Shown here piece after piece: positions 10,834-41,164 of a stretch of 64,000 bases of DNA (position 1 is the stretch's first letter; each line of letters begins with the position of its first letter). Both the position numbers and the translations under genes were made by a program. Under the pieces are notes generated by a model. It was not told where the DNA came from and made no database searches. It saw only the letters and a list, made by a program, of their open reading frames with translations. Origin of the DNA: Eubacteriales bacterium (GTDB lineage: Bacteria > Bacillota > Clostridia > Oscillospirales > CAG-272); NCBI GenBank assembly GCA_045659365.1, contig JAZOWT010000087.1, positions 5 through 64,004 of the forward strand. The letters run 5' to 3'.

Positions 10834-10945
10834 ACTTTTATCCTTGGTTAATAATAGTTAAGATATTATTTGATGCTTTGTGCTTGAAGTATACGCGCGC
10901 ACGTGTTATAATACTCTCGACATTGTTTTTAACACGGAGGATGCT

Positions 10946-11692
10946 ATGTTTGGTACCACGCATATCCTGTATATGCTCATTTCCGCGATAATCAGCGCTG
11001 GTATTTTAGTATTTCTTTATGTAAAAGTAAAGGATGATGACAATAAGACACTGGCCCTGAAGCTTATGGCGGTTGTTACCGTGATCATTCACTACAGCTC
11101 ACTTTGGGTAAACTTTTTTGCTACCGGTGACAAGGCTATCGAGGAGTCACAGCTTTTGCCTATCCACCCTTGCAACGTTTGCATGTGGTTTCTTATGGCT
11201 TGCGCGTATATCAAAAACAAGGAGTCGCGCATATACAAGCTTTTATCCGAGTTCACCTTCTGGGGTGGAACGGTATGCGGAAGCATCGGTATTATAATCA
11301 ACACAAACTTTGGTAACAATCCCACTCTTGCAGACTACGACGTGCTTAAGGGTATGCTTTCACACTCTACTATGCTGCTCGGTTGTATTTACCTGCTCGT
11401 GTCGGGAATCGTCAAGATCAGAGTTACAAACGTGATCAGTGTTATTGCAGGTCTTTCCTTCTTCGTTATAGACGGCACGATCATAAACACTCTTTACACC
11501 GTATTCGGCCGTGAGGCATGCAACTCTATGTATTTACAGGAGCTCCCCTTCCCTGATATGCCCTGGCTCAACACCCTGACGATGGGTATCCTCGGCGTGC
11601 TTGTTGCATTCGTCGGAACGGTTATATATGAATTCATAGCACTTCCTGCACCTGAACGTTGGTATTCAAAGCTTAAAAGGAGATCTAACTGA
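10946..11692 (+). CDS. Polytopic membrane protein, YwaF/TIGR02206-like
   Basis: About 7 TM segments and an LPIHPCN motif (family PLHLC-type motif). GGAGG RBS before the ATG at 10946. Confidence 0.45.
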   Translation: MFGTTHILYMLISAIISAGILVFLYVKVKDDDNKTLALKLMAVVTVIIHYSSLWVNFFATGDKAIEESQLLPIHPCNVCMWFLMACAYIKNKESRIYKLLSEFTFWGGTVCGSIGIIINTNFGNNPTLADYDVLKGMLSHSTMLLGCIYLLVSGIVKIRVTNVISVIAGLSFFVIDGTIINTLYTVFGREACNSMYLQELPFPDMPWLNTLTMGILGVLVAFVGTVIYEFIALPAPERWYSKLKRRSN

Positions 11693-12480
11693 TGAGAGAA
11701 TTTGCAATTTGGCTTTTTAGTGATGACAAGCCCTTAAACATCGACGTATTTTCGCCCTTTCATATACTCTATGCCGTAGTAATAATCGGCCTTACCATCC
11801 TGCTCGGAATTTATCTTTCCAAAAAGGATGAAACGGTTCAGAATCGTGTGCTCAGCATTATCGCATTCGCGACCGCATTCCTTTACCTGTCTGATTTCTT
11901 TATTCAGCCCCTTATGCACGGCGATGCCGCCGTACAGGGCGAGATGAACATAGATAAGCTCCCCTTCCATATTTGCACGCTCCTTTGCCCTCTTATCAAC
12001 TTTGTACAGTTCAACAAGTGCTGTGAGAAGCTTATGAAGGCTATAAGAGAGCCTGTTACTATTATGGCAATAGTCGGTCCGCTTATGTACATCTGTTATC
12101 CCAACGGTGCGGTTGGAGATATTTCTCCCATCTGCTACAAGATTCTTCAGACATTTATCTATCACGGTCTTGTATTCTCCTGGGGATTCAACATGATCGC
12201 TACAAAGAAGGTTATCCCCTCTATCAAGAGAAGCTGGCGCACACTTGTGGCGCTTGGCTGTGTGGCACTGTGGGCTTCCCTCGGTAATGCACTTTACATA
12301 AACCCCGAGAAGCACTACGACTGGTTCTTCCTTACCGGAAGCTCATTCGACTTCATCCCCGCACAGTTGATGCCTGTTGTTGTTATCGGCTCGATCTTCT
12401 GCGTTTCGCTTATGGTTTACGGCATTTACTACGCGGTAATGGCAGTAAAGAAAAATGTTGCTGCAAAGAAAGCGGCATAA
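11692..12480 (+). CDS. Polytopic membrane protein, YwaF/TIGR02206-like; tandem paralog
   Basis: LPFHICT motif and similar topology. Its ATG overlaps the upstream TGA (TGATG). Confidence 0.45.
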   Translation: MREFAIWLFSDDKPLNIDVFSPFHILYAVVIIGLTILLGIYLSKKDETVQNRVLSIIAFATAFLYLSDFFIQPLMHGDAAVQGEMNIDKLPFHICTLLCPLINFVQFNKCCEKLMKAIREPVTIMAIVGPLMYICYPNGAVGDISPICYKILQTFIYHGLVFSWGFNMIATKKVIPSIKRSWRTLVALGCVALWASLGNALYINPEKHYDWFFLTGSSFDFIPAQLMPVVVIGSIFCVSLMVYGIYYAVMAVKKNVAAKKAA

Positions 12481-14519: not shown

Positions 14520-15360
14520 CGGTGGCGACCGTATTATAACAGAAGTTGACGAGAGGTACGACGGACGGCTGATAAAGGAATTTTTAAAGGGGCGCGTCGG
14601 ACTTTCCACTACTCTTCTCTCAAAGGTGAAGTACGGCGGTGTGCGAGTATGCGGCGAGGTCGTGACAATGCGCAGGATCGTACACACCGGCGACGAGGTG
14701 GAGATCTGCCTGCCTAAAGAAAACAGCGAGAATATCAAGCCGATCGAGGGCGACTTAGACGTTCTATATGAGGACGATCACATACTCGTTGTCAACAAGC
14801 CTACAAACATGCCGGTACACCCATCGCGAGGAAATCACCTTGTAACACTCGGAAACGTGGTAATGGCATACCTAGGTGACAAAGTGGTGTTCAGGGCGGT
14901 GAACCGACTTGACCGCGACACATCAGGTATAGTAGTGATAGCCAAGCATCAGTACGCGGCAGGGCGACTGTCGGAGGATATGAAGCGCAGCGGATTTGAA
15001 AAATACTATACAGCACTTCTCGAGTGCGCGCCCGACAGTCTTAGCGGAATTATCGATGCACCGATAGAGCGAGAGGCCCCGGACAGTATAAAGCGCGTGG
15101 TACGTGAGGACGGAAAGAGAGCGGTTACCGAATACGCGATAAGAGAGGTTCTCGACGACGGACGTGCTGTTTGTGACGTAAGGCTACACACCGGCCGCAC
15201 ACATCAGATACGCGTACACATGGCACATATAGGCGCACCTCTGTATGCAGATTTCCTTTACGGCAGAAGGATCGAGGGAGAGAGCTATTCCCTTGTGTCA
15301 TCGAGAATTGTATTTAACCACCCGGTAACGGGAGAAAAAATGGATATAAGCATAAAATAA
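14506..15360 (+). CDS. RluA-family pseudouridine synthase with an S4 domain
   Basis: S4-like segment RLIKEFLKGRVGLS and catalytic block NRLDRDTSGIVVIAK...GRTHQIRVHMA. Start taken at MTFSDGG (14506). Confidence 0.85.
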   Translation: MTFSDGGDRIITEVDERYDGRLIKEFLKGRVGLSTTLLSKVKYGGVRVCGEVVTMRRIVHTGDEVEICLPKENSENIKPIEGDLDVLYEDDHILVVNKPTNMPVHPSRGNHLVTLGNVVMAYLGDKVVFRAVNRLDRDTSGIVVIAKHQYAAGRLSEDMKRSGFEKYYTALLECAPDSLSGIIDAPIEREAPDSIKRVVREDGKRAVTEYAIREVLDDGRAVCDVRLHTGRTHQIRVHMAHIGAPLYADFLYGRRIEGESYSLVSSRIVFNHPVTGEKMDISIK

Positions 15361-15390
15361 GAGCAGACACGGAATTGTGTCTGCTCTTAT
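15360..15390. terminator. Bidirectional terminator
   Basis: GAGCAGACAC (15361-15370), loop GGAATT, GTGTCTGCTC (15377-15386), flanked by A-rich and T-rich tracts. Confidence 0.8.
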
Positions 15391-15391
15391 T

Positions 15392-16147
15392 TTATATTTC
15401 GGCTTTAGCGTAAAGAGTTGCTCTGCCGCGCTTACCTATCTCGCATACAGCACCGACGGCAACAAGCAGCTTAAGTACGTAAAACGTATAACGTGACGTG
15501 CGCTTTATTGCCTTTGAAAGCTCAGATGCAGTAAACTGCATAGGGAGTGCGGGCGGAAGCTGAGATACGTAATCGTCAGTCGAAAAGAGCTCCTCCTCGC
15601 GTATTATACGAGTCGGTATCCGCTCGATACGGTTGGAGCCGCGCTTACGCGTCTTATCCCATCCGTCAAGCGCTCGGAAATCCTCTACCTGCATATGTAC
15701 AAGACGTACGGTGAGGTTTGGATGTGTAATGATCTCGCGTATGCCGAAGAGCATGCGAAAGGCATCATAGACGTTTTCGTGCTTCGGACTTTTCCTGCGC
15801 TCTGACATCTCACCTGTTGTATGATCGAGCCAACGCGTATACTTTTCGGTGGCGAGGGGACAAACAACGGTGACGGGCACGGAGGGGAGAATGCGGCGAA
15901 GCTTCGGAACAAGCCTTTCGTAGGCCTTAGTCTGCACCTCGTATATTCTTTCGTCGCACTTTACGTCGACAATCGAGCCCATATAGGCTACCTCGTGCCT
16001 GGTTGTATCGGGCTCGATATACAATTTCAGAATTTTGTGAAGCGATCGCTCTGAAAGAGTGCCTATCCCCTCCCAAGCGACGCTCTCGGAGAGGACGTCG
16101 GCTCTTGCTGTCTGAAAGCGGGCTTCGTCCGTTATTATCTCGGGCAT
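15392..16147 (-). CDS. Hypothetical protein; tentative restriction-endonuclease-like N-domain plus C-terminal winged-helix-like region
   Basis: Start at MPEIITDE, 10 nt after the BY-kinase stop. Segment IVDVKCDERIYEVQTK resembles a D...E-x-Q/K nuclease core. The C-terminus FTASELSKAIKRTSRYTFYVLKLLVAVGAV looks HTH-like. Confidence 0.55.
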   Translation of the reverse strand: MPEIITDEARFQTARADVLSESVAWEGIGTLSERSLHKILKLYIEPDTTRHEVAYMGSIVDVKCDERIYEVQTKAYERLVPKLRRILPSVPVTVVCPLATEKYTRWLDHTTGEMSERRKSPKHENVYDAFRMLFGIREIITHPNLTVRLVHMQVEDFRALDGWDKTRKRGSNRIERIPTRIIREEELFSTDDYVSQLPPALPMQFTASELSKAIKRTSRYTFYVLKLLVAVGAVCEIGKRGRATLYAKAEI

Positions 16148-16157
16148 TGACTTAAGC

Positions 16158-17687
16158 TTACACTGTTTTGTCAGTGCGGTAGGGAGTGTAGTACGCGCGA
16201 GAGCTGTACTTACCCTTTTTAGCATAATAATATGCAGATCCGGACTTGAGATCCACACCGTTTACAACATAGCCGACAATACGGCCGTTTACACCCTTGA
16301 TAAGCTCCTCGGACGTATCAATAGCATCAACGTCGGAGTAGTTGCTTCTGGCAACCATTACCGTACCGGTAAGAACCTGGGAAATAACACCGATATCCGA
16401 AACCTCGAATGCGGGAGGAGTATCGATTATGATGAAATCGTACTTTTCCTTTGCACTTGCTATGAGCTCCTTCATCTTCTCGCTACCGAGAAGCTCGGAG
16501 GGATTGGGAGGAATGCAGCCGGAGAAAATTATATCAAGGTTTTTATTGTACTTGTATATAACATCGTCCTCGGAGGCAACGTTACCACTGAGAATTTCAG
16601 ATACACCGAACTTTGCATCAGCGGCAAAGATTCTTACAATCTCGGGACGGCGCAGGTCACAGTCAAGAAGAAGGGTGCGCTTACCAAGTAAGGAAAGGGA
16701 GAGTGCGACGTTGGATGAAATAACACTCTTGCCGGCACCGGAGAAGTCAGAGGTGACCGCGAACACGGGACACTTCTCTGCCGCGGTCGAATAGCAAAGG
16801 TTGGTACGCAGAGTGTTGAATGCCTCGGAGACTGCAAAGGGGGTATCCTTGCAAAGTAGCTTGCCGGTATAATCACGGTTGCGGCCGAGGTCTATCCTGC
16901 CATGCTTCTTACGTGAGGACTTCTTGCCGTTCTCACCCGATCCCCATTCGGGAATAATACCTATAACGGGTGAGGTGAAGCGGGATTTTATAGTTGAGTC
17001 ATCATAAACCTTGGTATCGTTTATGTAAACGAGGAATGCTACGACATAGCTCACAACGAATGCAGCCGCCATACCGACAAGGGCATACTTAACTGCGGAG
17101 CTACGAACCTCGCGCACGTCATCTATGCTCTCGGTTTTTGCAAGGGGCTTAATCGTTGTGGATATTTTACTGCTTTCGGTAAGCGTGTACATATCCTCTA
17201 CAACACCGGGAAGAACCGACTGAACCGCGGTAATAACGTCGTAGGTCTGCTGAATGTCATATGAGGTTACGGTAACGGTAAATATAGCCGAGTCGGCAGA
17301 GGGCTTGCCTGCGCTTACCATAGAGGCGACCTTGCTGATAGCGGTAGATCTGTCAACGCCGAGAGCCTTATCGAGTCTATGCTGATCAACCGCCTCTGCT
17401 ATCACGCAATCCTCACGGATTATGTCAACACAGTTGTCGGCAATAGCCTCGGCCGCGGTGAGCATCGTTACGTCGATGTATTCCTTATCGGGAAGAACGT
17501 TTATGACGTTAAATCTGGCGCTTGCAGAGTATCTGGTACGTGTAAATAGCTTAACGTACGCGCCTGCCAGAGCACCCACGAGCACGGTTATGATCGCGAT
17601 CACAATGACAAATTTCTTTAAAACGTCCAAAAGCAATGAAAACTTAATTTCGGATCGCTTCTTTGCGCTTTTCACTTCGTTGTTCAT
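16158..17687 (-). CDS. Fused Wzz-type chain-length-determinant domain and bacterial tyrosine (BY) autokinase
   Basis: Two TM segments flank an extracellular domain. Walker A SGAGKSV, Walker A' LLLDCDLRRP, Walker B DFIIIDTPP. C-terminal Tyr cluster SAYYYAKKGKYSSRAYYTPY. Confidence 0.85.
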   Translation of the reverse strand: MNNEVKSAKKRSEIKFSLLLDVLKKFVIVIAIITVLVGALAGAYVKLFTRTRYSASARFNVINVLPDKEYIDVTMLTAAEAIADNCVDIIREDCVIAEAVDQHRLDKALGVDRSTAISKVASMVSAGKPSADSAIFTVTVTSYDIQQTYDVITAVQSVLPGVVEDMYTLTESSKISTTIKPLAKTESIDDVREVRSSAVKYALVGMAAAFVVSYVVAFLVYINDTKVYDDSTIKSRFTSPVIGIIPEWGSGENGKKSSRKKHGRIDLGRNRDYTGKLLCKDTPFAVSEAFNTLRTNLCYSTAAEKCPVFAVTSDFSGAGKSVISSNVALSLSLLGKRTLLLDCDLRRPEIVRIFAADAKFGVSEILSGNVASEDDVIYKYNKNLDIIFSGCIPPNPSELLGSEKMKELIASAKEKYDFIIIDTPPAFEVSDIGVISQVLTGTVMVARSNYSDVDAIDTSEELIKGVNGRIVGYVVNGVDLKSGSAYYYAKKGKYSSRAYYTPYRTDKTV

Positions 17688-17753
17688 TTAAAACTCCATT
17701 CCGTCGCCGGATGACGACTATGCAAAGGTTATGCTTCGAGCCATAGCCCGTAG

Positions 17754-18470
17754 TTACTCTGTGGTTTTGCCCTCTACGAAGGCACTGTACGCAACGCGCG
17801 CAGCCTCGGGATCCATATTGCACTCAAGCTCATACAGAGGTACCGTCGAAAGTATTTCGTCAGCAATTCGCATTGAGCGAGCTATCGAAAGGCCGCTGGT
17901 CTTTGAAATGTATATCTGGTTCATAAGGCGCATGGAAACCTGATCGGGTGTCGCCTTGCGCGATCTGTTTGTTATGCCTCTTGAGAGAAAGGCAATACCG
18001 CCAATGGGGAGCATAGCATTATAGCCATAGCCCTCCTTCCCTCTCCAGGGAGTTGAGCAGGCATAGGGTACACCGTCTATTATTCTGAAGATCGGCTTAT
18101 CTCCGTTGAGTATTTTCACCTTGTCTCCGAACTCGGAGAGCCAAAGGCGGGTATGTGTTGTTTTACCGACTCCGCTATGGGCGGTCACGGCATATGCGCG
18201 ACCGTCATATTCAAGTATCGCACCGTGAAAAACAAGTGCGGAAAACTCAGACAGGCGCTCGGCTATCTTGCGGTACATAACTACGTTTTCGACGTATTGA
18301 TCAGGAAGTGTGACACCGGACATCTTGCATTCGTACTCAATGTCGGCATCGGTTGAGGATACAGTGAAGAGCGGCTGCTCATCACACACAAACTCGGAAA
18401 CGTATTTCTCGGTATATTCGAATCTTGCATCGATCCCTATTGGGATACCTGCTATTTTTATTGTAACCAT
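17754..18470 (-). CDS. HprK-related P-loop kinase-like protein
   Basis: AHSGVGKTTHTRLW...ILNGDKP resembles the P-loop and downstream DD region of the HPr kinase C-domain. Starts 9 nt after the LRR gene's stop. Confidence 0.45.
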   Translation of the reverse strand: MVTIKIAGIPIGIDARFEYTEKYVSEFVCDEQPLFTVSSTDADIEYECKMSGVTLPDQYVENVVMYRKIAERLSEFSALVFHGAILEYDGRAYAVTAHSGVGKTTHTRLWLSEFGDKVKILNGDKPIFRIIDGVPYACSTPWRGKEGYGYNAMLPIGGIAFLSRGITNRSRKATPDQVSMRLMNQIYISKTSGLSIARSMRIADEILSTVPLYELECNMDPEAARVAYSAFVEGKTTE

Positions 18471-18479
18471 ATGCCCTCC

Positions 18480-21386
18480 TTATTTTCCGTTTTCATAAGC
18501 GTAGACTATCACGCCGTTTCCTGCAAGGAAGGTGATATACGAAAACTGGGTTTCGTTGCCGTCATAGTTAACTGTGGTTACGGATACACAACCGTAAAAC
18601 GCGTCCGCGTAAACGGTATGCAACGTCAACGGCAGGTATACCTTAGTAAGGGAGGTGCAGGCATAAAAGGCATTCTCGCCTATTGTACGTACTCCTGTGG
18701 GTATATCGACCGTGGTAAGCGCGGTACAGCCATAGAACGTGGCGGTAGGAATATTATCAAGGGAGGTTGAAAGAGTTACGCGGTCAAGCTTTGTGCATCC
18801 GCGGAAGACCTCAACACCCATTTCGGTAATAGAATTCGGCAATACGACTCTTTCCAAGGAGGTTGACTCGAAGAACACTCCCTCTCCAAGCTCTTCAACA
18901 CCGTTGGGGAGCTCTATTACATGAATAGACGTGAGGTATGCAAATGCCCTGTCGCCTATGTAAAGAGGAACACCGGACCACTCTATCTCAGAGAGAGATC
19001 TCGCGTTTGCAAACGCGCCTGCGCCTATGTAGTCGCACTGCTCGGGGATCTCGATCTTTTCAATTTCAATGCAGCTTGTAAATGCCGATGCACCGATTGC
19101 ATACACGTTATCGTGCATGGTAACGCGCTCGAGCGCGTTACAGTTATAAAAGGCATAGCCGGGGATGTAATTGAGCGTTTGGGGTATTTTCACTGAGGTG
19201 AGCGAGGTGCATGCGGTGAAGGCATAGTCACCAAGCTCGGTGAGATCATCAAGCTTAATTTCGGAGAGTGCGGCACAGCCGTTGAATGCATGCGCGCCTA
19301 TCGAGGTAACGTTACCTAAGCTTATGCTCTCGAGCTTCTGATTTGCGAAGAATGCATAGTCACCGATTACGGTAATGCCGGTGGGAGAGCCGATAGAGGT
19401 GAGCGCGGCGCAGGCCTCAAACGCGGAGTCACATATCTCGGTAACACTGTCGGGCAGGCTTATAGAGGTAAGTGCCTTACAGTCAAAGAATGCTTCCCTG
19501 CCGATCGAGGTATAGGAGCCGTGAAGATCGACATCCGAAAGAAGAATCGAGCCCATAAATGCACCGTCGGGGATCGCGGCAATTCCACTACCTACACTGA
19601 CGGATACAAGAGAGCGACAAACCATAAAGGAATACGCGCCAAGGTGTGTAACGGTGTCGGGGACAGTAACACTTTCAAGACCGGAGTCCATGAAGGCATA
19701 GTTCCCTATTGATCTGACCGATGCGGGAATGTTGATGCCTTTAAGCGCTCTTGTGAGGCTGAATGCATAATCTCCGATAGCGGTGACACCGCTTGTGATG
19801 TTGACGTCGGTCAATGCGGTACACTCGGAGAACATGTAGCTTCCTATTGTGGAGAGCGATGACGGAATATTTACTGAGGTAAGCGAGTAACAGTCAAGGA
19901 ACACCTTTTCGCCAACCTCGGTAAGGGTACCGGGGAGATCAATTTCGGAAAGGCGCTGGCAGTTTTCAAACGCGTTGTCGCCTATATAGGCTACCGACGA
20001 ATCGGAGAAATCAACGGTGGTAAGGTAGGTTGCATGCCAAAAGCCGTAGTCCTCGATGCGAGTAAGCGACTTTGGAAGCTTAACGTTTATAAGCGCATCA
20101 CAGCTTGCAAAGGCAGATGAGATGCTTTTGATACCCTCGGGAAGAGTCAGGGTGACACCGTAAAGGCGCTGCTGCTCTACCCCGCCGACGGTAACCGTGC
20201 GGTACACGAGCTCGGCATAGTCGGTAGCGACCACCGGTGCGGGAGACTGAGTGTTGTCGCGAACGGGATTGTATTTCAAGAGGATACCGTCACCGACGAT
20301 TACAAGCTCGTCGGTAAGGCTCTTATAATAAGCGGAGCCGGAAAAGGCAAGACCGCCGATGTATTCCACACTGTCGGGGATATTGACCGTAGCCAGGTTA
20401 TCGCAAAAATAGAATGCATACGTACCGATGCGCTTAAGTCCCTCGGGAAGTATGACCGAGGTGAGCGACTGACAGTTACGGAATGCGTACTCCTCGATCG
20501 AGGTTACGTGAGCCGGAACGGTGTATGAGGTAAGGGGAGTTGCGGCGGGCATTATAACAACTGTGTGCGAATCGAGATCGACAAGTGCGCCGCCGTCAGT
20601 TGAGTAACGGACGTTACCATCGGCTACGGATATTGTGGCCAAGGCATTGCAGGAATGGAATGCCGACTGGCCGAGGGATGAAAATCCGGAGCCAAGAGAG
20701 ATGTCGGTAAGCGCGGAGCATCCTGCAAAGGCGCGCGCGCCAATGCTGACAAGAGATTCTGTACCGGTGATTTGTGCAAGCGCTGAGCATCCCTCAAAGG
20801 CAGATCCGCCTATCGAGGTGCAACTGGACGGAAGAGCGATTTTGGTTATCTTCTCACAGCCGTAGAATGCGCCGTCACCTATATTGGTAACCGAGCTTGA
20901 GATCGTCACATCCGAGAGCTTGACGCTTCCGTAAAATGCAGCGGCGCCGATCGACGTGACAGTATCGGGGATGACAACCTTTTCAAGCAAGGTGCAGGTA
21001 GAAAAGGCATTTGAACCTATTATCTCAAGCGAGTCACCAAACGAGATCGAGGTCAACGAAGCGCATCCGCTGAATGCTCCGTCACCGATCTCGGTAACGA
21101 AGACACCGAGACGAACAGATTTGACCGAGGTCTTACTGAACGCGCCCTTGCCTATTTTAGTTACCGGATTACCGCCTATGGCAGACGGGACGGATACGTC
21201 TGTATCATCATCGAGGTAAGCGAGGATGGTTACACTACCGTCGTCGAGCAGAGTGTATTTGTAGTCGGCGGTATAGTATATTTCTCTTTCCGGGGTGGTG
21301 TTGCCACCGAGGGTAAGTATCAAGATGATTGCAACGGCGGCGACAAGAAGCACCAGAGCCGAGGCAATAATTATTTTTTTCTTCAT
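18480..21386 (-). CDS. BspA-type leucine-rich-repeat cell-surface protein (968 aa), N-terminal membrane anchor
   Basis: Start at MKKKIIIASALVLLVAAVAIILIL (ATG at 21386). Dozens of ~23-aa repeats of the form xVTSIGxxAFxxCxxLxxVxIP. Confidence 0.85.
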   Translation of the reverse strand: MKKKIIIASALVLLVAAVAIILILTLGGNTTPEREIYYTADYKYTLLDDGSVTILAYLDDDTDVSVPSAIGGNPVTKIGKGAFSKTSVKSVRLGVFVTEIGDGAFSGCASLTSISFGDSLEIIGSNAFSTCTLLEKVVIPDTVTSIGAAAFYGSVKLSDVTISSSVTNIGDGAFYGCEKITKIALPSSCTSIGGSAFEGCSALAQITGTESLVSIGARAFAGCSALTDISLGSGFSSLGQSAFHSCNALATISVADGNVRYSTDGGALVDLDSHTVVIMPAATPLTSYTVPAHVTSIEEYAFRNCQSLTSVILPEGLKRIGTYAFYFCDNLATVNIPDSVEYIGGLAFSGSAYYKSLTDELVIVGDGILLKYNPVRDNTQSPAPVVATDYAELVYRTVTVGGVEQQRLYGVTLTLPEGIKSISSAFASCDALINVKLPKSLTRIEDYGFWHATYLTTVDFSDSSVAYIGDNAFENCQRLSEIDLPGTLTEVGEKVFLDCYSLTSVNIPSSLSTIGSYMFSECTALTDVNITSGVTAIGDYAFSLTRALKGINIPASVRSIGNYAFMDSGLESVTVPDTVTHLGAYSFMVCRSLVSVSVGSGIAAIPDGAFMGSILLSDVDLHGSYTSIGREAFFDCKALTSISLPDSVTEICDSAFEACAALTSIGSPTGITVIGDYAFFANQKLESISLGNVTSIGAHAFNGCAALSEIKLDDLTELGDYAFTACTSLTSVKIPQTLNYIPGYAFYNCNALERVTMHDNVYAIGASAFTSCIEIEKIEIPEQCDYIGAGAFANARSLSEIEWSGVPLYIGDRAFAYLTSIHVIELPNGVEELGEGVFFESTSLERVVLPNSITEMGVEVFRGCTKLDRVTLSTSLDNIPTATFYGCTALTTVDIPTGVRTIGENAFYACTSLTKVYLPLTLHTVYADAFYGCVSVTTVNYDGNETQFSYITFLAGNGVIVYAYENGK
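18537..21164 (-). repeat. Two blocks of tandem ~69-nt LRR coding repeats (diverged at the DNA level)
   Basis: The periodic IG(D/x)xAF...C..L motif recurs throughout the translated protein. Boundaries are approximate. Confidence 0.65.
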
Positions 21387-21426
21387 ATAATACGTGCACC
21401 TGCGTGTATAATGTCTATTAAAATCA

Positions 21427-21455
21427 ATTATACAACAAGCAAGCATTTTTGTCAA
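21427..21455 (-). promoter_or_regulatory. Consensus sigma-A promoter for the LRR/kinase operon
   Basis: On the minus strand: TTGACA (21450-21455), 17-nt spacer, TATAAT (21427-21432). Confidence 0.6.
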
Positions 21456-21564: not shown

Positions 21565-22851
21565 ATGAAAAAGGGCTTTAAGAGGGCTATGCTTGTAGCG
21601 AGTATGCTTATCGTGGCGCTTATGGTCGGCGGAGTGAGTGCTTTTGCCGATTTTGGCAGCGGTGTTGCGGCGATGGCGGAGGGCACCGAGATCATCAAGA
21701 CGGCTATTTCGGGAAAAAAGATCGTATTCTCCGACGTTGATTTCAAGCAGGGGCTTTGCATTACCGACTTTGACCAGATCGAGATCACCGCGGTACCCGA
21801 GAGCAATCAGGGTACCCTGATGCTTGCAGGCCGCAGAGTGGGTGTGGGAACAGTGATCAAGCGCAAGAACATAGGGGCGCTCGTATTTATTCCTGCAAGC
21901 CGTGAGGTAAGTGAATGCCGCTTTAAGTTTAAGACCGACGACTATGCCTCGGGGGCAGAGGTGGATTTCGTATTGAAATTCACCGAGAAGGTCAACTACG
22001 CGCCGACAGTGTCCGCAAAGAGTGACGGCGAGCTTGTAACACAGCGTGAGGTAAGCATTTACGGTACGATGCGCGCCGATGACGTTGAGTCTGATGATAT
22101 CGAATACCTTGTCATAAGCTATCCCACGGCCGGGGTTCTCAATGTTTTAGACAAGAAAAACGGTAAATTTCTTTACACGCCCCCCACTGATTACACCGGA
22201 GAGGTCTCCTTTACCTTCGTTGCCAGAGATGAATGGGGCAACTTCTCAAAACCCGAGAAGGTAGCGATAAGCGTGGTGGAAAGAATGAGCGAGGTTGTGT
22301 ATGAGGACCTCAAGGGTCACAAGGATTACAACGCGGCAATAGCGCTTACTGCAATCGGGGCGGCTGACGGCAGACTTATCGGCGACGGAGTATATTTCAT
22401 GCCGGAGGATAAGGTGAGTGTTGCCGAGTTTGTAACCATGGCAATGAAATGTGCGGGCATATCGGCAGACAAGTCGCTTACAGAGACCTATTTTGACGAT
22501 GACAAATACATTCCTGCACCTATGAAAAGCTATATCGCAACTGCGCAAAAATACGGCATCGTGCAGGGAAAATTTGAAAACGGGGGTCTTTTTTTGTACC
22601 CTAACAAGGCTATAACGAGATATGAAGCGGCTATGGTCATGGCGATGCTGGTAGACTCATGCGAGGGGGCATCTATCCCCACGTTTTCTGACAGTGATAC
22701 CCTGCCCGTTTGGGCTGAGGCGGCGGTGGCAGAGATGTGCGCTATGGGGATTTTTGACGGTGAGTGTGAAACCATCGGTGGCACTGACGAGCTATCTAAG
22801 ATCGAATGCGCAGCATATCTTTACAAGATGTACAGTTCTATCGATAGATAA
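21565..22851 (+). CDS. Secreted cell-wall-anchored protein: cadherin/Ig-like domain plus three C-terminal SLH repeats
   Basis: Signal peptide ending VSAFA. Segment VNYAPTV...YTPPTDYTGEVSFTFVARDEWGN. SLH-like segments begin at YEDLKGHKDYNAAI, YFDDDKYIPAPMKSYI and FSDSDTLPVWAEAAV. Confidence 0.75.
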   Translation: MKKGFKRAMLVASMLIVALMVGGVSAFADFGSGVAAMAEGTEIIKTAISGKKIVFSDVDFKQGLCITDFDQIEITAVPESNQGTLMLAGRRVGVGTVIKRKNIGALVFIPASREVSECRFKFKTDDYASGAEVDFVLKFTEKVNYAPTVSAKSDGELVTQREVSIYGTMRADDVESDDIEYLVISYPTAGVLNVLDKKNGKFLYTPPTDYTGEVSFTFVARDEWGNFSKPEKVAISVVERMSEVVYEDLKGHKDYNAAIALTAIGAADGRLIGDGVYFMPEDKVSVAEFVTMAMKCAGISADKSLTETYFDDDKYIPAPMKSYIATAQKYGIVQGKFENGGLFLYPNKAITRYEAAMVMAMLVDSCEGASIPTFSDSDTLPVWAEAAVAEMCAMGIFDGECETIGGTDELSKIECAAYLYKMYSSIDR

Positions 22852-22895: not shown

Positions 22896-23420
22896 TCAAT
22901 TTCTTTTAACGAGTGTTGAAATTATGACGTACAGTGCATAGACAACAAGCAGTACTCCGAAAACCAGTGCGGCAAAGTCGGCCCAGTTTTCAATAAAGAG
23001 GACGCCAAAGCCTACAAGAGAGATGAGTGCGCCTACGGAAATCTGGGTAGCAAGCATTCTGCCACCGATACTTCTGTAAAGGAAATAACGAAGAAATGCA
23101 TCGGCTATTACAAGCGCGCCAACCGAGATCATTATCCATGGGATAAACGAGAGCAAAAGTCCGGCGAGGTTGTGAACGATGATCATGGTGCCGAGCGCAC
23201 CGAGAACTACACCAACAAGTCCGTTAGTGGTAAGAAGGAGGTGGGTTCTCACGATCGAGTTGATGACAAACAGGACACCTATGAATATAACAAATCCGCC
23301 GAGAAGGTAGCTGAGCGCCCATGCACCGAATCCACAAAACAAAACTCCTAGCACAAATATAGCACAGGCAAAAATTATAGTGCTGATATCATTAGAGCTT
23401 AACTTTTTAATCGACATCAA
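22896..23420 (-). CDS. Small polytopic membrane protein (HdeD/DUF308-like)
   Basis: Six predicted TM helices with repeated G-rich helix pairs. No other recognisable motif. Confidence 0.4.
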   Translation of the reverse strand: MMSIKKLSSNDISTIIFACAIFVLGVLFCGFGAWALSYLLGGFVIFIGVLFVINSIVRTHLLLTTNGLVGVVLGALGTMIIVHNLAGLLLSFIPWIMISVGALVIADAFLRYFLYRSIGGRMLATQISVGALISLVGFGVLFIENWADFAALVFGVLLVVYALYVIISTLVKRN

Positions 23421-24996: not shown

Positions 24997-25028
24997 GGCA
25001 AGCACACGTGTGCTTGCCATTATTTTTT
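24997..25028. terminator. Bidirectional terminator (perfect 22-nt palindrome)
   Basis: GGCAAGCACAC/GTGTGCTTGCC (24997-25018), flanked by TAAAA and TTATTTTTT. Confidence 0.75.
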
Positions 25029-26606
25029 GTATTTTTTTACGATTGAGAGCGCTACGCGTACACCGTCGGTCGCAGATGACACGATACCACCGGAATATCC
25101 TGCTCCCTCACCTGTGGGGTAGAGCCCCTTCAAGCTTACAGATACGTAATTTTCATCACGTAAAATTCGCACGGGTGCGGTGGAACGGGTTTCGGCACCG
25201 GTCAGGACGGCATCGCGAAGAAGGAAGCCGGGCATCCATTCATCAAAGTCGTATATTGCCGCGCGCAAGGACTCGGTGATATAATCGGGAAGATATTTTT
25301 CAGTGGCACAAGGCGTAGTGCCTACCGGATACGTTGGCTCGACCGAGCCGAGGGAGGTTGGCGCCTTGCAGTCGAGGAAGTCGCCCATTGTGGTGACGGG
25401 GGCATGATAATTCGAGCCACCGGCAACGAAGGTGCGCTTCTCTATTTCATCCTGGAGGGCGAAGCCGCCAAGGGGAGATGAATTTGGAAAATCAGCGGGT
25501 GTAACTGAAACAAGGAATGCGGCATTGGAATTTTTGCCATCGCGCAGATACTCACTCATACCGTTGGTGACAACACCGCCGAGGACACTGGTTGCCGGGA
25601 CAACAGTGCCGCCGGGACACATGCAAAAGCTATACACACTTCTGCCGTTATCAAGGTGAGTAACAAGATGATATGATGCGGTCTCAAGGCGGGAGTCGTA
25701 TCCCTTTCCGTACACGAGGTCGTTCATATACTCGCGCGGGTGCTCGATCCTGACACCGATGCCGAAGCCCTTGGCCTCCATTTTTACACCGTTGTCATAA
25801 ATTTTCGCTATCGTATCGCGCGCACTGTGACCAATTGCAAGAATAACGTCACTTGCAGGGAGGGTAATTAATTGCCCTTCCTTTTCATATTTTACCGCAC
25901 TCAGAGTACCGTTATCGCTTATTACGTCTACAAGCCTTGATGAGTAGGAGATCTCGCCGCCGAGGGATATAATCCGCTCACGGATGGCGGCAACTATGTC
26001 GGAAAGCTTATCCGTGCCGAGGTGGGCGGTGGAGGAATAAAGGATGTCCTCGCTCGCGCCTGCATCGACAAAGGTATTAAGCACCTTCATCTTATATTTA
26101 TCCATACTGCCGACCTTAAGCTTGCCATCGGAGTAGGTGCCGGCACCTCCCTCACCGAACTGAACGTTACACTCGGTGTCGAGCACACCCATACGGGCAA
26201 AGAGGTCGACCTTTTCCCTTCTCTTCTCTACCGGGAGACCGCGCTCAAGGACGATAGGACACGCGCCGGACTCAGCTAGCACCAAGGCGGCAAAAAGACC
26301 TGCGGGACCTAGGCCGACAACAACGGGTCTGATGGAAAAATCGGCCGCAGGAACTGTCAACGTGTAATCGGGAACCGAGGCGACCTTCTTGCGCATTTTT
26401 AAAAGACCTGCCTCACGATCCTCGGAAAGCGATATTCCCACGGTGGCACGGTACTTTATATTCGACTTATCGCTAAGATCGAGCGAGGTGCGAAGAAGTC
26501 GGAGGTCGGAAAGCTCATCAGAGGAAACAGGAAGACGCTCGCACACGGCGGCCTTGATATCCGCGGTCGTATAACCTATCGGAAGATATATTTCGGTTTT
26601 GATCAT
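25020..26606 (-). CDS. FAD-dependent oxidoreductase (COG2509-like uncharacterised dehydrogenase)
   Basis: Dinucleotide-binding motif VVVGLGPAGLFAALVLAESG and C-terminal GLYPTGEGAGYSGGI. Start at MIKTEIY, which has an AAAGGAG RBS. Confidence 0.75.
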   Translation of the reverse strand: MIKTEIYLPIGYTTADIKAAVCERLPVSSDELSDLRLLRTSLDLSDKSNIKYRATVGISLSEDREAGLLKMRKKVASVPDYTLTVPAADFSIRPVVVGLGPAGLFAALVLAESGACPIVLERGLPVEKRREKVDLFARMGVLDTECNVQFGEGGAGTYSDGKLKVGSMDKYKMKVLNTFVDAGASEDILYSSTAHLGTDKLSDIVAAIRERIISLGGEISYSSRLVDVISDNGTLSAVKYEKEGQLITLPASDVILAIGHSARDTIAKIYDNGVKMEAKGFGIGVRIEHPREYMNDLVYGKGYDSRLETASYHLVTHLDNGRSVYSFCMCPGGTVVPATSVLGGVVTNGMSEYLRDGKNSNAAFLVSVTPADFPNSSPLGGFALQDEIEKRTFVAGGSNYHAPVTTMGDFLDCKAPTSLGSVEPTYPVGTTPCATEKYLPDYITESLRAAIYDFDEWMPGFLLRDAVLTGAETRSTAPVRILRDENYVSVSLKGLYPTGEGAGYSGGIVSSATDGVRVALSIVKKYKK

Positions 26607-26739
26607 ATGCGGCGCTCCTTTCACAAATATCATTACTATTTTACCACCAGCGCGACGCTTTTGCAATAGAAATTGCCAAATTGGGTATATGAATTGATTT
26701 TTATGGAAAAATACCTTCAACAATGGATATCAGAAGGCG

Positions 26740-30491: not shown

Positions 30492-31373
30492 TTAGTCGTT
30501 TTTGACGTGCACGTCGAGCTGGTTGTAGGGGATCTCGATACCGTTCTTATCGAACTCTGCTTTAACGCTTTCAAGAACGTCGAAGTACACAGTCCAATAA
30601 TCAGCGCTATTTACCCAGACTCTTGCGGCAATGTCGATCGAGCTTGAGTTGTGTGTGGATACGCGTACGGTTGTAGCCTTATCCTTGAGTGTAAGCTCGT
30701 GCGAAGCAAATACCTCGTTTATGATTGCCTTTGCCTTTTCAAAATCGTTGTTGTAGCTGATCGAGAAGGTGAAGTCAACACGGCGAAGATCGTTTTCGGA
30801 GTAGTTTACAATATTGCCGTTAGCAAGCGCACCGTTGGGGATATAAACCACCTTGTTATCGGGAGTGAATATTCTCGTATTGGTGAGACGGATATCCTGG
30901 ACGGTACCGCTATATCCCTGCGCCTCGATGTAGTCATCGATCTTGAAGGGTCTGGTGATAATAATGAGAAGTCCGCCGGCGATATTCGAAACCGCGCCGT
31001 TAACAGCAAGACCGAGGCAGACACCAAGGGAAGCGATAAGAGCGGTGATGGCGCTGGTATCAATACCAAGGTAGCCAATAAGACAAACGAGAACAATACT
31101 CTTTGCGCCTATCCTTACAAGGTAAGCAAGAGTCTTCATTATCGTTTTGTCACGTTTGGGAAGCTCGCCGCTGCGCTGAATTCTTTTCGCGATAACGTTT
31201 ATTATCTTAAACGAAATGAACAGCACAATAAGAGCTATAATAACCTTTATTCCGGTGGTAAGAACCCAGTTAACAACGTTGTTAAGAAGCTTTGACCAGT
31301 CTATTGACACGTCGGGTACAACTGTTTCAACCTCTGTGGTGCCTGCATCAGCAGTAAGAAGCATTTTGTACAT
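30492..31373 (-). CDS. Small-conductance mechanosensitive channel (MscS family)
   Basis: Three N-terminal TM segments, then the MscS beta-domain pattern FKIDDYIEAQGYSGTVQDIRLTNTRIFTPDNKVVYIPNG. Confidence 0.85.
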   Translation of the reverse strand: MYKMLLTADAGTTEVETVVPDVSIDWSKLLNNVVNWVLTTGIKVIIALIVLFISFKIINVIAKRIQRSGELPKRDKTIMKTLAYLVRIGAKSIVLVCLIGYLGIDTSAITALIASLGVCLGLAVNGAVSNIAGGLLIIITRPFKIDDYIEAQGYSGTVQDIRLTNTRIFTPDNKVVYIPNGALANGNIVNYSENDLRRVDFTFSISYNNDFEKAKAIINEVFASHELTLKDKATTVRVSTHNSSSIDIAARVWVNSADYWTVYFDVLESVKAEFDKNGIEIPYNQLDVHVKND

Positions 31374-31440
31374 ATTACTTTGATTTATCCTTTCTTTTAA
31401 TATAAATAGATTATATCACTGTATCGATAATTTGTCAATA

Positions 31441-31483: not shown

Positions 31484-32536
31484 TTATCCTACAAGACCGG
31501 AACGCTCAATACCCTGTACAAGGTACTTCTGACAGAACAGGTACATAATTACAAGCGGGAATATGATCATTATTGCCGCGGTATTACGGATAGCTGTCTC
31601 GTACAGCGATCTACCTGCAAAGTTTTCATAGGTAAGTGAGGGAGGGATCTTGCTGAGCAGGTCGGGCATAAGATACATCTTATTTCTACTGATCATGAAG
31701 AAGATCTGAGTGTAGAAGTTATCCGTCCACTGCCAGGAGAAGGAGAAGAGGAAGATCGTGATCATCATAGGTACGGAAAGAGGAATGATGATCGAGAAGA
31801 AGGTTCGGAAGGTGCCCGAGCCGTCAACGTAAGCGGACTCCTCAAGCTCATCGGGAACGCCCTTGAAGAACTGACGCATAAGGTATATGTAAAGTCCGTT
31901 CTTAAAGGCAAGACCGAAGATGGAAAGTATGATAAGCGGCCAGAACGTGTTAGACAAGTCGAGCTGAGCGCCATCAAGGATGATATCCATAATTCCACGG
32001 TAGCTCCAAGCATTGACCTTAAGGAAGTCAAAGTCGGTGAAGTGCTGAATAAGTGACATTCTCATTGTTCTATGAGGAATTACCATCGTAAGGACAACGG
32101 CTGCCATCAAGATCTTATTACCCTTGAACTTGAACTTTGCAAGTCCGTAACCGATAAGGCAGGCGATAAGAGTCTGAATAATAGCACAGAACAGGGAGAG
32201 GAGCGCGGTGTTAAGAAGCGCTTCGAAATATCTGTTCTCTGTTATCATGTACTTATAGATATCAATAGTGAAATGCTTAGGGATAATTGCAACGGTTGCG
32301 TCAACAACGTCTTCCTTGCTCATGAAGGATCCGGCAATCTTAGTTACGAAGGGGAAAATGATTACGTAGGAAACGCCAAGCATGAGTATAAAACGGAACA
32401 GGTTAATGACAGCCTTGATCCAGGTGTTAGAAGCCTTAAGCTTCTGCTTCATTCTTTCCTGCAGAGAGAGCTTGCCTTCGTAATCAACGCGGATCTTATT
32501 TTTGGTTTCTTTAGTTACTGTAGTTTTAGAATCCAT
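31484..32536 (-). CDS. CUT1 carbohydrate ABC transporter permease (MalG/LplC-like), second pair
   Basis: EAA loop EESAYVDGSGTFRTFFSIIIP, six TM segments and a ~40-aa basic N-terminal extension. AAGGAGG RBS. Confidence 0.85.
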   Translation of the reverse strand: MDSKTTVTKETKNKIRVDYEGKLSLQERMKQKLKASNTWIKAVINLFRFILMLGVSYVIIFPFVTKIAGSFMSKEDVVDATVAIIPKHFTIDIYKYMITENRYFEALLNTALLSLFCAIIQTLIACLIGYGLAKFKFKGNKILMAAVVLTMVIPHRTMRMSLIQHFTDFDFLKVNAWSYRGIMDIILDGAQLDLSNTFWPLIILSIFGLAFKNGLYIYLMRQFFKGVPDELEESAYVDGSGTFRTFFSIIIPLSVPMMITIFLFSFSWQWTDNFYTQIFFMISRNKMYLMPDLLSKIPPSLTYENFAGRSLYETAIRNTAAIMIIFPLVIMYLFCQKYLVQGIERSGLVG

Positions 32537-32548
32537 GTTGACACCTCC

Positions 32549-33487: not shown

Positions 33488-33506
33488 TTTTTACTCCTCC
33501 TTATCC

Positions 33507-37100: not shown

Positions 37101-37117
37101 TCTATTTACCTCCTGCT

Positions 37118-39292: not shown

Positions 39293-39304
39293 ATTTCCTC
39301 CTTT

Positions 39305-40186: not shown

Positions 40187-40187
40187 A

Positions 40188-41138: not shown

Positions 41139-41164
41139 TACTTATTTCTCCTTTCTGTAATTCC

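What the first reader, a model, noticed from the sequence alone, without database searches (positions are those of the whole stretch)
15392..21455. Four-gene operon joining an LRR surface protein, an HprK-like P-loop protein, an orphan fused BY-kinase and a nuclease-like/wHTH protein
Seen in the sequence: a consensus TTGACA-17-TATAAT promoter (21427-21455) followed by four co-directional genes with 9, 66 and 10-nt gaps, ending at a bidirectional terminator (15360-15390). Established knowledge: BY-kinases with a Wzz domain normally sit in capsule/EPS loci alongside a phosphatase (CpsB/PTP), an initiating glycosyltransferase, a flippase and a polymerase. None of those is present within 64 kb. 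Firmicute BY-kinases are also usually split into two polypeptides (CpsC/CpsD type); here the modulator and kinase are fused. Inference: the kinase may act on a non-EPS target. Two putative kinases with different folds, next to a 968-aa BspA-type adhesin and a putative DNA-binding/nuclease-like protein, could form a surface-linked signalling or modification module.
Basis: partly seen in the sequence, partly recalled or inferred. Interest (0 to 1): 0.55.

Follow-up and report, generated by a model that had tools for sequence, protein, structure and literature searches.

The report
Surface-protein operon with a dispensable tyrosine kinase
The four genes are real and probably transcribed together, but related gut bacteria show a loose assembly: a conserved surface protein plus small kinase, an optional tyrosine kinase and an independent DNA-binding-type gene.

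Summary
There are four co-directional genes with 9, 66 and 10 nt gaps. There is a perfect TTGACA-17-TATAAT promoter, a 20-bp bidirectional terminator hairpin, and no capsule/EPS genes or tyrosine phosphatase in 64 kb.

The domain calls hold:
- a BspA-type LRR_5 protein with one N-terminal membrane segment;
- a cytoplasmic kinase-like protein with the HprK/PEPCK fold, weakly matching Pfam ScmC;
- a fused Wzz plus BY-kinase with intact Walker A, A', B motifs and a tyrosine-rich tail;
- a DUF8091 protein with a PD-(D/E)xK-like motif and a winged helix.

The "four-part surface signalling module" reading is not supported. I examined 80 related species, all uncultured gut Clostridia.
- The stable block is a divergently transcribed Big_9/SLH wall protein, the LRR protein and the small kinase, together with the conserved perfect promoter.
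- The BY-kinase is intact in 27 of 73 loci, decayed to a pseudokinase in 6, split in 1 and absent in 39.
- DUF8091 drifts in position and occurs alone in other lineages.
- Only 14 of 59 loci keep the window's arrangement.
- Housekeeping flanks are conserved about as well, so synteny alone does not show a functional link.

Fused BY-kinases, including ones outside EPS loci, also occur in other Firmicutes. This is ordinary, with small curiosities.

The parts
21427..21455 (-). Perfect sigma-70/sigma-A type promoter, TTGACA-17-TATAAT, upstream of the LRR gene
   Evidence: 12 of 12 matches. Two exact matches in 64 kb against 0 in 100 shuffles. The same perfect hexamers lie upstream of the orthologous LRR gene in 45 of 58 related species, and at 10 of 12 or better in 56 of 58.
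18480..21386 (-). 968-aa BspA-type leucine-rich-repeat protein with a single N-terminal membrane or signal-anchor segment; predicted to face outward
   Evidence: Pfam LRR_5 674.7 bits with 8 matched stretches. HupY/LrrG 303.9 bits against a cut-off of 1250, so not that equivalog. Hydrophobic segment at residues 1-32. The short basic tail plus membrane segment is conserved in orthologues.
17754..18470 (-). 238-aa cytoplasmic P-loop protein with the HprK/PEPCK fold, a weak match to Pfam ScmC (PF27840); putative Ser/Thr kinase acting on a peptide or protein
   Evidence: AlphaFold pLDDT 95.8. Foldseek top hits are ATP-PEPCK and HprK/P at E 1.8e-7 to 1e-5. Invariant SGVGKT, NGDKP and TPWxGxE motifs. 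Weak ScmC, HprK-related kinase A/B, PEPCK and HprK matches across family members. No membrane segment.
16158..17687 (-). 509-aa fused Wzz-like membrane domain (two membrane segments flanking a loop of about 150 aa) plus BY-kinase catalytic domain
   Evidence: TIGR01007 158.6 bits against a cut-off of 108. Walker A SGAGKS, A' LLLDCDLRRP, B FIIIDTPP, and 8 Tyr in the last 40 residues. Wzz 22.9 bits, sub-threshold. Membrane segments at 14-49 and 198-225.
15392..16147 (-). 251-aa DUF8091 protein: N-terminal PD-(D/E)xK-like domain (by motif and topology only) plus C-terminal winged helix-turn-helix
   Evidence: PF26351 (DUF8091) is recorded for the identical protein and all homologues. Invariant E33, H37, E52, D61, E70-x-Q72. 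AlphaFold pLDDT 91.8. Only the C-terminal 60 aa matches ArsR/eS25-type winged helices, weakly, at E 0.02-0.1.
15351..15396 (.). Bidirectional intrinsic terminator hairpin between the operon and the convergent rluA-type gene
   Evidence: 20-bp perfect stem, dG -28.7 kcal/mol, z = -11.5, 0 of 200 shuffles as stable. A-run and U-run flanks read from the sequence.
21565..22851 (+). Divergently transcribed 428-aa secreted Big_9/cadherin-like protein with an SLH-like C-terminus; the most constant neighbour of the LRR/P-loop pair
   Evidence: Pfam Big_9 32.7 bits, Cadherin_5 29.8 bits, SLH 20.7 bits against a cut-off of 20.8. Signal-type hydrophobic N-terminus. Present divergently upstream in 61 of 66 related loci.

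Best explanation
This is a composite transcription unit, not a dedicated four-part machine.

Shown:
- A perfectly consensus housekeeping promoter, conserved base-for-base across most related species, precedes the gene for a membrane-anchored BspA-type LRR surface protein.
- The next gene, for a cytoplasmic ScmC-like kinase of the HprK/PEPCK fold, follows after 9 nt. In many relatives the two genes overlap by 4 nt.
- These two genes and a divergently transcribed Big_9/SLH wall protein form the stable block in this lineage of uncultured gut Clostridia.
- The fused Wzz-BY-kinase occupies a variable slot downstream. In the window it has every catalytic motif and a tyrosine-rich tail.
- Across relatives the kinase is intact, decayed to a pseudokinase, split or missing.
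- DUF8091 stays in the neighbourhood but moves relative to the other genes, and it occurs alone in other lineages.

Inferred:
- The strong promoter makes the LRR protein an abundant envelope protein.
- The small kinase phosphorylates a serine or threonine on a peptide or protein. This is by analogy with HprK/P and the lasso-peptide kinases, and with family members fused to PqqD, S24-peptidase or nucleotidyltransferase domains.
- The BY-kinase is a self-phosphorylating, Wzz-coupled kinase that acts in trans on polysaccharide or envelope machinery, or on other proteins, encoded elsewhere. It rides on the operon's transcription.
- DUF8091 is an unrelated DNA-binding or nuclease-like housekeeping gene.
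For: Transcription unit: gaps, ribosome-binding sites, no internal terminator, a 12 of 12 promoter and a strong terminator. The promoter is conserved at 12 of 12 in 45 of 58 species while the flanking bases vary.

Context in 80 species-representative loci:
- LRR adjacent upstream: 58 of 70.
- Big_9/SLH divergent upstream: 61 of 66.
- Kinase: fused and intact 27, pseudokinase 6, split 1, none 39, of 73.
- DUF8091 within 4 kb downstream: 39 of 56, at offsets from -106 to +3645 nt.
- Window-like four-gene order: 14 of 59.

Other points:
- The pseudokinase clade has lost Walker A and B and the Tyr tail.
- At least 7 presence/absence changes map on a P-loop neighbour-joining tree.
- DUF8091 occurs alone elsewhere.
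- The kinase motifs are intact in the window.
- P-loop fold and family placement. Fusions to Peptidase_S24, PqqD and NTP_transf_5. Radical-SAM, S26-like peptidase and ABC neighbours in a distant member.
- HprK homologues phosphorylate the C-terminal Ser of lasso precursors (PMC8498205).
- BY-kinase gene context is known to vary between genomes (PMC4007543).
Against: - Co-transcription is predicted, not measured.
- All 80 loci come from one lineage whose housekeeping flanks are also syntenic (YjeF upstream in 35 of 56). Conservation of the LRR/P-loop/Big_9 block may therefore itself be inertia rather than function.
- No substrate for either kinase is identified. The LRR protein has essentially no cytoplasmic part for a cytoplasmic kinase to act on.
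- The kinase was never found where the LRR gene is missing (0 of 6 against 28 of 53; Fisher p = 0.025, not corrected for phylogeny). This hints at some dependence between them.
- DUF8091 overlaps or abuts the preceding gene in many loci, which would fit a functional link as well as simple compaction.
Confidence: 0.55

Rival explanations
1. One reading: the four proteins cooperate as one surface-linked signalling or modification module. For example, the LRR ectodomain contacts the extracytoplasmic Wzz loop and sets BY-kinase activity. The kinase then phosphorylates the small kinase and/or the DUF8091 DNA-binding protein to change gene expression or envelope modification.
For: - Tight co-directional spacing under one promoter and one terminator.
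- The arrangement recurs in 14 of 59 related species and in a large clade on the P-loop tree.
- The kinase gene is never present where the LRR gene is absent (0 of 6 against 28 of 53, p = 0.025 uncorrected).
- Firmicute BY-kinases such as PtkA have non-EPS substrates and alternative activators (abstract of PMC5035731).
Against: - The kinase is absent in 39 of 73 loci and catalytically dead in 6, while LRR, P-loop and DUF8091 persist.
- DUF8091 and the P-loop family each occur without the others in other lineages.
- Unrelated genes (an FAD-dependent protein, a tRNA_edit protein) are inserted between the members in many relatives.
- Housekeeping flanks are conserved about as well as the module.
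Confidence: 0.12
2. Displaced EPS/capsule kinase: the BY-kinase is the chain-length regulator and autokinase for a polysaccharide or wall-polymer locus elsewhere in the genome. That locus lacks its own kinase, and the position here is accidental. This overlaps with the best explanation's 'acts in trans'.
For: - The protein passes the polysaccharide-biosynthesis autokinase model (TIGR01007) and carries a Wzz-type co-polymerase domain.
- The next-closest fused kinases (26-29% identity) sit either in a canonical EPS locus with a CpsB phosphatase (L086) or as a kinase-CpsB pair among housekeeping genes (L087).
- The neighbours are envelope proteins, LRR and Big_9/SLH.
Against: - No cognate phosphatase is adjacent, here or in any of the 80 related loci at single-sequence sensitivity.
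- Repeated loss and decay of the kinase suggests it is not essential for a core polymer.
- The rest of the genome could not be inspected.
Confidence: 0.28
3. The small kinase and DUF8091 form a two-gene unit of a kinase and a nuclease-like DNA-binding protein, for example a toxin-antitoxin or defence pair. The LRR and BY-kinase genes would be bystanders.
For: - DUF8091 directly follows or overlaps the P-loop gene in at least 8 loci that lack the kinase, and lies within 4 kb in 39 of 56.
- There is P-loop-only similarity to the zeta toxin PezT at E 0.079.
Against: - No meaningful PADLOC match for any of the four proteins. The only match is the P-loop protein at E 0.019 (12.4 bits) to PDC-M01B, which is not significant.
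- The locus is stable in the chromosome, with housekeeping synteny and uniform base composition, and shows no sign of mobility.
- Each family is found without the other outside this lineage.
- The PezT hit is not significant.
Confidence: 0.05

Closest known systems
BY-kinases (Wzc, CpsC/CpsD, CapA/CapB, TkmA/PtkA)
   Same: Walker A, A' and B motifs, a C-terminal tyrosine cluster, and an N-terminal Wzz-type two-pass membrane domain. It passes TIGR01007. Like B. subtilis PtkA/TkmA, it lies outside a classical EPS operon.
   Different: - It is fused in one polypeptide, as in Proteobacteria. It lacks the long periplasmic and GNVR region of Wzc (509 aa against about 720).
- It has no adjacent phosphatase or sugar genes.
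- Its orthologues in sister species are often lost or decayed.
HprK/P and HprK-like peptide kinases (lasso-peptide kinases such as the paeninodin kinase; ScmC; HprK-related kinases A and B)
   Same: PEPCK/HprK-type P-loop fold, a GxGK[ST] loop and a conserved Asp-containing NGDKP motif. Family members are fused to, or adjacent to, PqqD, nucleotidyltransferase, peptidase and radical-SAM genes, as in RiPP clusters.
   Different: - The window protein is below threshold for every curated model (ScmC 15.6 bits against 125; no Hpr_kinase_C hit).
- No precursor peptide, PqqD protein, radical-SAM enzyme or peptidase is encoded next to it here.
- Its constant neighbour is an LRR surface protein instead.
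BspA-type LRR_5 surface proteins (BspA; HupY/LrrG)
   Same: Long arrays of LRR_5 repeats in a secreted or surface-exposed protein.
   Different: - The score is far below the HupY/LrrG equivalog cut-off.
- It is anchored by an N-terminal membrane segment rather than an LPXTG motif, an SLH domain or a lipobox.
- No adhesion data exist for it.
Pfam DUF8091 (PF26351)
   Same: The window protein and all 109 homologues are assigned to it.
   Different: The family has no described function, and no paper in the library mentions it. The nuclease-like reading is my inference from motifs and topology.

Membership tests
BY-kinase (polysaccharide biosynthesis tyrosine autokinase) | Score above the curated family cut-off | tested here: met
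   TIGR01007 scores 158.6 bits against a cut-off of 108.05.
BY-kinase (polysaccharide biosynthesis tyrosine autokinase) | Walker A, Walker A' (DxDxR) and Walker B (hhhhDxxP) motifs | tested here: met
   SGAGKS, LLLDCDLRRP and FIIIDTPP, aligned with orthologues.
BY-kinase (polysaccharide biosynthesis tyrosine autokinase) | C-terminal tyrosine cluster | tested here: met
   8 Tyr in the last 40 residues, including YYY and YY.
BY-kinase (polysaccharide biosynthesis tyrosine autokinase) | Wzz-type membrane activator domain with two membrane segments | tested here: inconclusive
   Pfam Wzz scores 22.9 bits against a cut-off of 25.5, and TIGR01006 32.9 against 296. Two hydrophobic segments at 14-49 and 198-225. 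PF02706 is recorded for many orthologues.
BY-kinase (polysaccharide biosynthesis tyrosine autokinase) | Usual context: EPS/CPS genes and a cognate phosphotyrosine phosphatase nearby (typical, not strictly defining) | tested here: not met
   None in 64 kb. None within 10 kb in 80 related loci at single-sequence sensitivity.
BY-kinase (polysaccharide biosynthesis tyrosine autokinase) | Tyrosine autophosphorylation activity | not testable with these tools
   Needs biochemistry.
HprK/PEPCK-like P-loop kinases | PEPCK/HprK C-terminal domain fold | tested here: met
   Foldseek against PDB: ATP-PEPCK E 1.8e-7 to 1e-5 (TM 0.5 on the query) and HprK/P E 7e-6 (TM 0.46-0.50 on the target). The model has pLDDT 95.8.
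HprK/PEPCK-like P-loop kinases | P-loop GxGK[ST] and a downstream conserved Asp | tested here: met
   S99-G-V-G-K-T-T-H and N122-G-D124-K-P are invariant or nearly invariant across 37 and 51 sequences.
HprK/P proper (Pfam Hpr_kinase_C; TIGR00679) | Score above the family cut-off | tested here: not met
   No hit for the window protein. Only 1 of 51 relatives touches TIGR00679, at E 0.002.
ScmC (SynChlorMet cassette protein; TIGR04249 / PF27840) | Score above the equivalog cut-off, and cassette context (radical SAM/SPASM enzymes and a peptide) | tested here: not met
   15.6 bits against a cut-off of 125. PF27840 is recorded only as 'weak'. 35 of 51 relatives hit TIGR04249 weakly, best at 3.3e-10. 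No radical-SAM genes lie near it in the window.
LRR_5 / BspA-type repeat proteins | LRR_5 repeats above the cut-off | tested here: met
   674.7 bits against 27.7, with 8 matched stretches.
HupY/LrrG adhesin equivalog | Score above the equivalog cut-off | tested here: not met
   303.9 bits against 1250.
DUF8091 (PF26351) | Pfam assignment | tested here: met
   Precomputed PF26351 on the identical protein P0121 and on all homologues. Named DUF8091.
PD-(D/E)xK nuclease superfamily (for gene 4) | Alpha-beta-beta-beta-alpha-beta core with D...(D/E)xK-type catalytic residues, and a fold match | tested here: inconclusive
   Invariant E33, E52, D61 and E70-x-Q72 lie on predicted strands of matching order. 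No significant Foldseek or sequence match to any nuclease was found.
Operon (single transcription unit) | Co-transcription of all four genes | not testable with these tools
   Only predicted, from spacing, one promoter and one terminator.

The most novel reading that the evidence does not exclude
The conserved pair, not the BY-kinase, may be the interesting part. A cytoplasmic ScmC-like kinase of the HprK fold could be functionally tied to a highly expressed, membrane-anchored BspA-type LRR protein. It might modify the LRR protein, or a partner, before export, or modify an as yet unseen small peptide. The Wzz-BY-kinase would then be an optional regulator that needs the LRR protein, since it is never found without it. 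This would be a new use of the RiPP-type peptide kinase family in envelope biogenesis.
Probability: 0.1. Interest if true: 0.55.

Novelty: new member of a known kind. Interest (0 to 1): 0.25.

Why it matters
The evidence instead shows an accessory BY-kinase that is gained, lost, split or inactivated within one lineage. That is a modest but clear example of how freely these kinases move and decay outside polysaccharide loci.

Two by-products may be useful:
- A large uncharacterised ScmC-like kinase family: 6209 clusters (50% identity) at E up to 0.001, with fusions pointing to peptide modification.
- A base-perfect consensus promoter conserved across dozens of species. It marks the LRR protein as a probable major envelope protein of an uncultured gut lineage.

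Tried and rejected
- PADLOC gave no meaningful match for any of the four proteins; the only match was the P-loop protein at E 0.019 to PDC-M01B. I dropped a defence-system reading.
- Sequence search of the P-loop profile against PDB gave only a non-significant P-loop match to the zeta toxin PezT, E 0.079. I do not use it.
- Foldseek of the DUF8091 model against PDB and BFVD matched only the C-terminal winged helix, weakly. The nuclease call could not be confirmed.
- Looking up the window's own contig by exact protein failed, and the cluster look-up gave no names or accessions. The source genome and its other loci could not be inspected.
- I looked for a cytoplasmic part, or a conserved C-terminal Ser, in the LRR protein as a possible kinase substrate and found none.
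- I looked for kinase remnants in the loci that lack the kinase, using tblastn, and found none. The losses are clean or old.
- A literature search for DUF8091 returned nothing.
- My first motif regexes for Walker A were too strict and gave false negatives. I replaced them with alignment-based columns.
Full report
**1. The observation**

All four genes lie on the minus strand.
- LRR gene: 18480-21386, 968 aa.
- P-loop gene: 17754-18470, 238 aa.
- Wzz/BY-kinase gene: 16158-17687, 509 aa.
- Fourth gene: 15392-16147, 251 aa. The ORF could start at a GTG at 16258, but the alignment of 35 homologues supports the ATG at 16147.

The gaps are 9, 66 and 10 nt. AGGAGG and GGAG ribosome-binding sites lie ahead of genes 2 and 3.

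The promoter at 21455-21427 matches TTGACA-17-TATAAT at 12 of 12 positions. The exact pattern occurs twice in the window and never in 100 shuffles.

A perfect 20-bp hairpin at 15351-15396 lies downstream (dG -28.7 kcal/mol, z = -11.5). It sits between the operon and a convergent pseudouridine-synthase gene, and its A-run and U-run flanks fit a bidirectional terminator. Base composition is uniform across the window and there are no tRNA genes.

**2. What the four proteins are**

Gene 1 is a BspA-type LRR_5 protein (674.7 bits). It is not the HupY/LrrG adhesin (303.9 bits against a cut-off of 1250). It has one hydrophobic segment at the extreme N-terminus and nothing that would stay in the cytoplasm.

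Gene 2 has no hit in the local Pfam copy.
- Its AlphaFold model is very confident (pLDDT 95.8). Its best PDB matches are ATP-dependent PEPCK and HprK/P (E 1.8e-7 to 1e-5).
- The public index assigns relatives weakly to Pfam PF27840, named ScmC.
- Of 51 diverse relatives, 35 touch the ScmC model, 13 the HprK-related kinase A model and 11 the kinase B model, all below cut-off.
- SGVGKT, NGDKP and TPWxGxE are invariant or nearly so, as expected of an active enzyme.
- It has no membrane segment.

Gene 3 passes the BY-kinase model (TIGR01007, 158.6 bits against 108).
- It has Walker A, A' and B motifs, and 8 tyrosines in its last 40 residues.
- Two membrane segments flank a loop of about 150 residues with sub-threshold Wzz similarity.

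Gene 4 is Pfam DUF8091.
- Its model is confident (pLDDT 91.8).
- The last 60 residues or so resemble ArsR- and eS25-type winged helices, but only weakly.
- The N-terminal part has invariant E33, E52, D61 and E70-x-Q72 on strands in the order typical of PD-(D/E)xK nucleases. No structural or sequence match confirms this.

'Nuclease-like' remains the least secure.

**3. The rest of the window**

I scanned 37 further ORFs, covering the remaining large gene-sized ORFs of the window, against Pfam. I found hydrogenase subunits, glycoside hydrolases, pyruvate kinase, lysine-pathway genes, sugar ABC transporters, PolC, isoprenoid genes and others. There is no initiating transferase, glycosyltransferase, flippase, polymerase or tyrosine phosphatase. 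A tblastn search with EPS-locus proteins from another Firmicute was also empty.

**4. Relatives**

The P-loop protein has 1168 close homologues in the word-indexed search. It has 6209 clusters (50% identity) at E up to 0.001 in the exhaustive search. DUF8091 has only 109 homologues.

A scan of species-representative genomes found 417 species with a P-loop relative. I analysed the best 80, at 42-82% identity. All are uncultured gut Clostridia or Eubacteriales MAGs, many from ruminants. I called ORFs and searched them with the window's proteins. The results, among loci with enough flanking sequence:

| Feature | Count |
|---|---|
| LRR gene directly upstream of the P-loop gene | 58 of 70 |
| Divergent Big_9/SLH gene upstream | 61 of 66 |
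| Wzz-kinase fused and intact | 27 of 73 |
| Wzz-kinase decayed to pseudokinase | 6 of 73 |
| Wzz-kinase split into two genes | 1 of 73 |
| Wzz-kinase absent | 39 of 73 |
| DUF8091 within 4 kb downstream (offsets -106 to +3645 nt) | 39 of 56 |
| Window's four-gene arrangement kept | 14 of 59 |

- The LRR and P-loop genes often overlap by 4 nt.
- The pseudokinase clade keeps the Wzz domain but has lost Walker A (for example AASFADPDA), Walker B (LVILSLPS) and the tyrosine tail.
- DUF8091 sometimes overlaps the P-loop gene. Sometimes it is separated from it by an FAD-dependent protein and a tRNA_edit protein.
- On a neighbour-joining tree of the P-loop proteins the kinase is clade-structured, with at least 7 presence/absence changes.
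- No kinase remnants were detectable where the kinase is absent.

As a control, unrelated housekeeping genes are also syntenic. YjeF, with a cytidylate-kinase-like gene beside it, lies upstream in 35 of 56 loci. Adjacency in this lineage is therefore weak evidence for function.

Outside the lineage the families part company.
- DUF8091 sits alone next to a DUF308 protein and a DinG-type helicase, or between a thiolase and an aminotransferase.
- Distant P-loop relatives are followed by an S24/S26-like peptidase. In one case two radical-SAM genes and an ABC transporter flank them.
- Other distant relatives are fused to Peptidase_S24, PqqD or NTP_transf_5 domains.

**5. The promoter**

The perfect TTGACA-17/18-TATAAT upstream of the LRR gene is present at 12 of 12 in 45 of 58 related species, and at 10 of 12 or better in 56 of 58. 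The spacer and flanks differ freely. This phylogenetic footprint supports a real, strong promoter. I infer that the LRR protein is highly expressed.

**6. The BY-kinase among its kin**

Its homologues fall from 34-38% identity for the most distant members of its own clade to 26-29% for the next group. That next group is also made of fused Wzz-kinase proteins of about 500 aa. I looked at two of them.
- One closes a textbook EPS locus (Bac_transf, glycosyltransferases, a flippase, epimerases) and is followed by a CpsB-type phosphatase (L086). The contig carries sporulation genes, so it is from a Firmicute.
- The other is a kinase-CpsB pair among housekeeping genes in a dockerin-bearing Clostridium-like genome (L087).

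So fused BY-kinases, and BY-kinases outside EPS loci, occur in at least these other Firmicutes. The literature states the split arrangement as the Firmicute rule (abstract of PMC5035731). It also reports that BY-kinase gene context varies considerably between genomes (PMC4007543). What sets the window's kinase apart is the lack of any adjacent phosphatase, here and in all 80 related loci at the sensitivity used.

**7. Mechanism**

Shown:
- a plausible single transcription unit;
- an intact BY-kinase catalytic set;
- an HprK/PEPCK-fold enzyme with invariant active-site-like motifs;
- an outward-facing LRR protein;
- the comparative pattern above.

Inferred:
- The small kinase phosphorylates a serine or threonine of a peptide or protein. 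Every characterised member of the HprK branch does this, including the lasso-peptide kinases that act on the precursor's C-terminal Ser (PMC8498205). The family's fusions point the same way.
- The BY-kinase autophosphorylates and acts in trans on machinery encoded elsewhere.
- DUF8091 is an independent DNA-binding or nuclease-like protein.

I could not find a substrate link between the cytoplasmic kinase and the exported LRR protein.

The kinase gene is never present where the LRR gene is missing (0 of 6 against 28 of 53, p = 0.025). The LRR-less loci are few and related, and the test is not phylogenetically corrected.

**8. Verdict**

These are new members of known families in a lineage-specific, partly conserved arrangement. 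Interest is low to moderate. The small points of interest are the decay series of the kinase, the base-perfect conserved promoter, and the large uncharacterised ScmC-like kinase family.

Noticed in passing
window 21427-21455, and the orthologous position in L007-L085: The perfect TTGACA-17/18-TATAAT promoter upstream of the LRR gene is kept at 12 of 12 in 45 of 58 related species, while the surrounding bases vary. This is a clean phylogenetic footprint and suggests very strong expression.
   Followed up: yes
L004 10711-12015, L014 10727-12034, L016 3488-4777, L021 10695-12014, L050 9971-11350 (also L015, L030): One clade keeps the Wzz domain, but its kinase domain has lost Walker A, Walker B and the tyrosine tail. 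This is a BY-pseudokinase in the same slot.
   Followed up: partly
L083 8311-15023; L080 10713-11183; L077 9112-9597; proteins P0270, P0273, P0283, P0326, P0365: Distant members of the P-loop (ScmC-like) family are followed by an S24/S26-like peptidase. In a Candidatus Blautia MAG, two radical-SAM genes and an ABC transporter flank the gene. Other members are fused to Peptidase_S24, PqqD or NTP_transf_5. This looks like a peptide-modification system.
   Followed up: partly
window 31484-44611 (- strand): A large sugar-uptake-like cluster: four BPD_transp_1 permease genes, a 1197-aa DUF5696 protein, a 724-aa NHL/TPR/Yip1 membrane protein and an unusually large 1148-aa solute-binding protein.
   Followed up: no
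window 31410-31438 (- strand): The second exact TTGACA-17-TATAAT in the window, just upstream of an MscS-type channel gene (30492-31373).
   Followed up: no
window 10880-12480: Two tandem TMEM164-family genes (270 and 262 aa).
   Followed up: no
window 25020-26723; L004 12122-13525: An FAD-dependent protein (FAD-depend_C) lies 3.5 kb away from the operon in the window. In several relatives it sits between the P-loop gene and DUF8091, which shows local gene shuffling in this region.
   Followed up: partly
window 22896-23420 (- strand); L005 10819-11388: A 174-aa multi-pass membrane protein next to the Big_9/SLH gene has no Pfam hit. In an unrelated lineage, DUF8091 lies directly next to a DUF308 membrane protein and a DinG-type helicase.
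   Followed up: no
L012, L033, L051, L052, L059, L061, L072: Seven related species lack the LRR gene, so the P-loop gene sits directly beside the divergent Big_9/SLH gene. None of the seven has the Wzz-kinase.
   Followed up: partly
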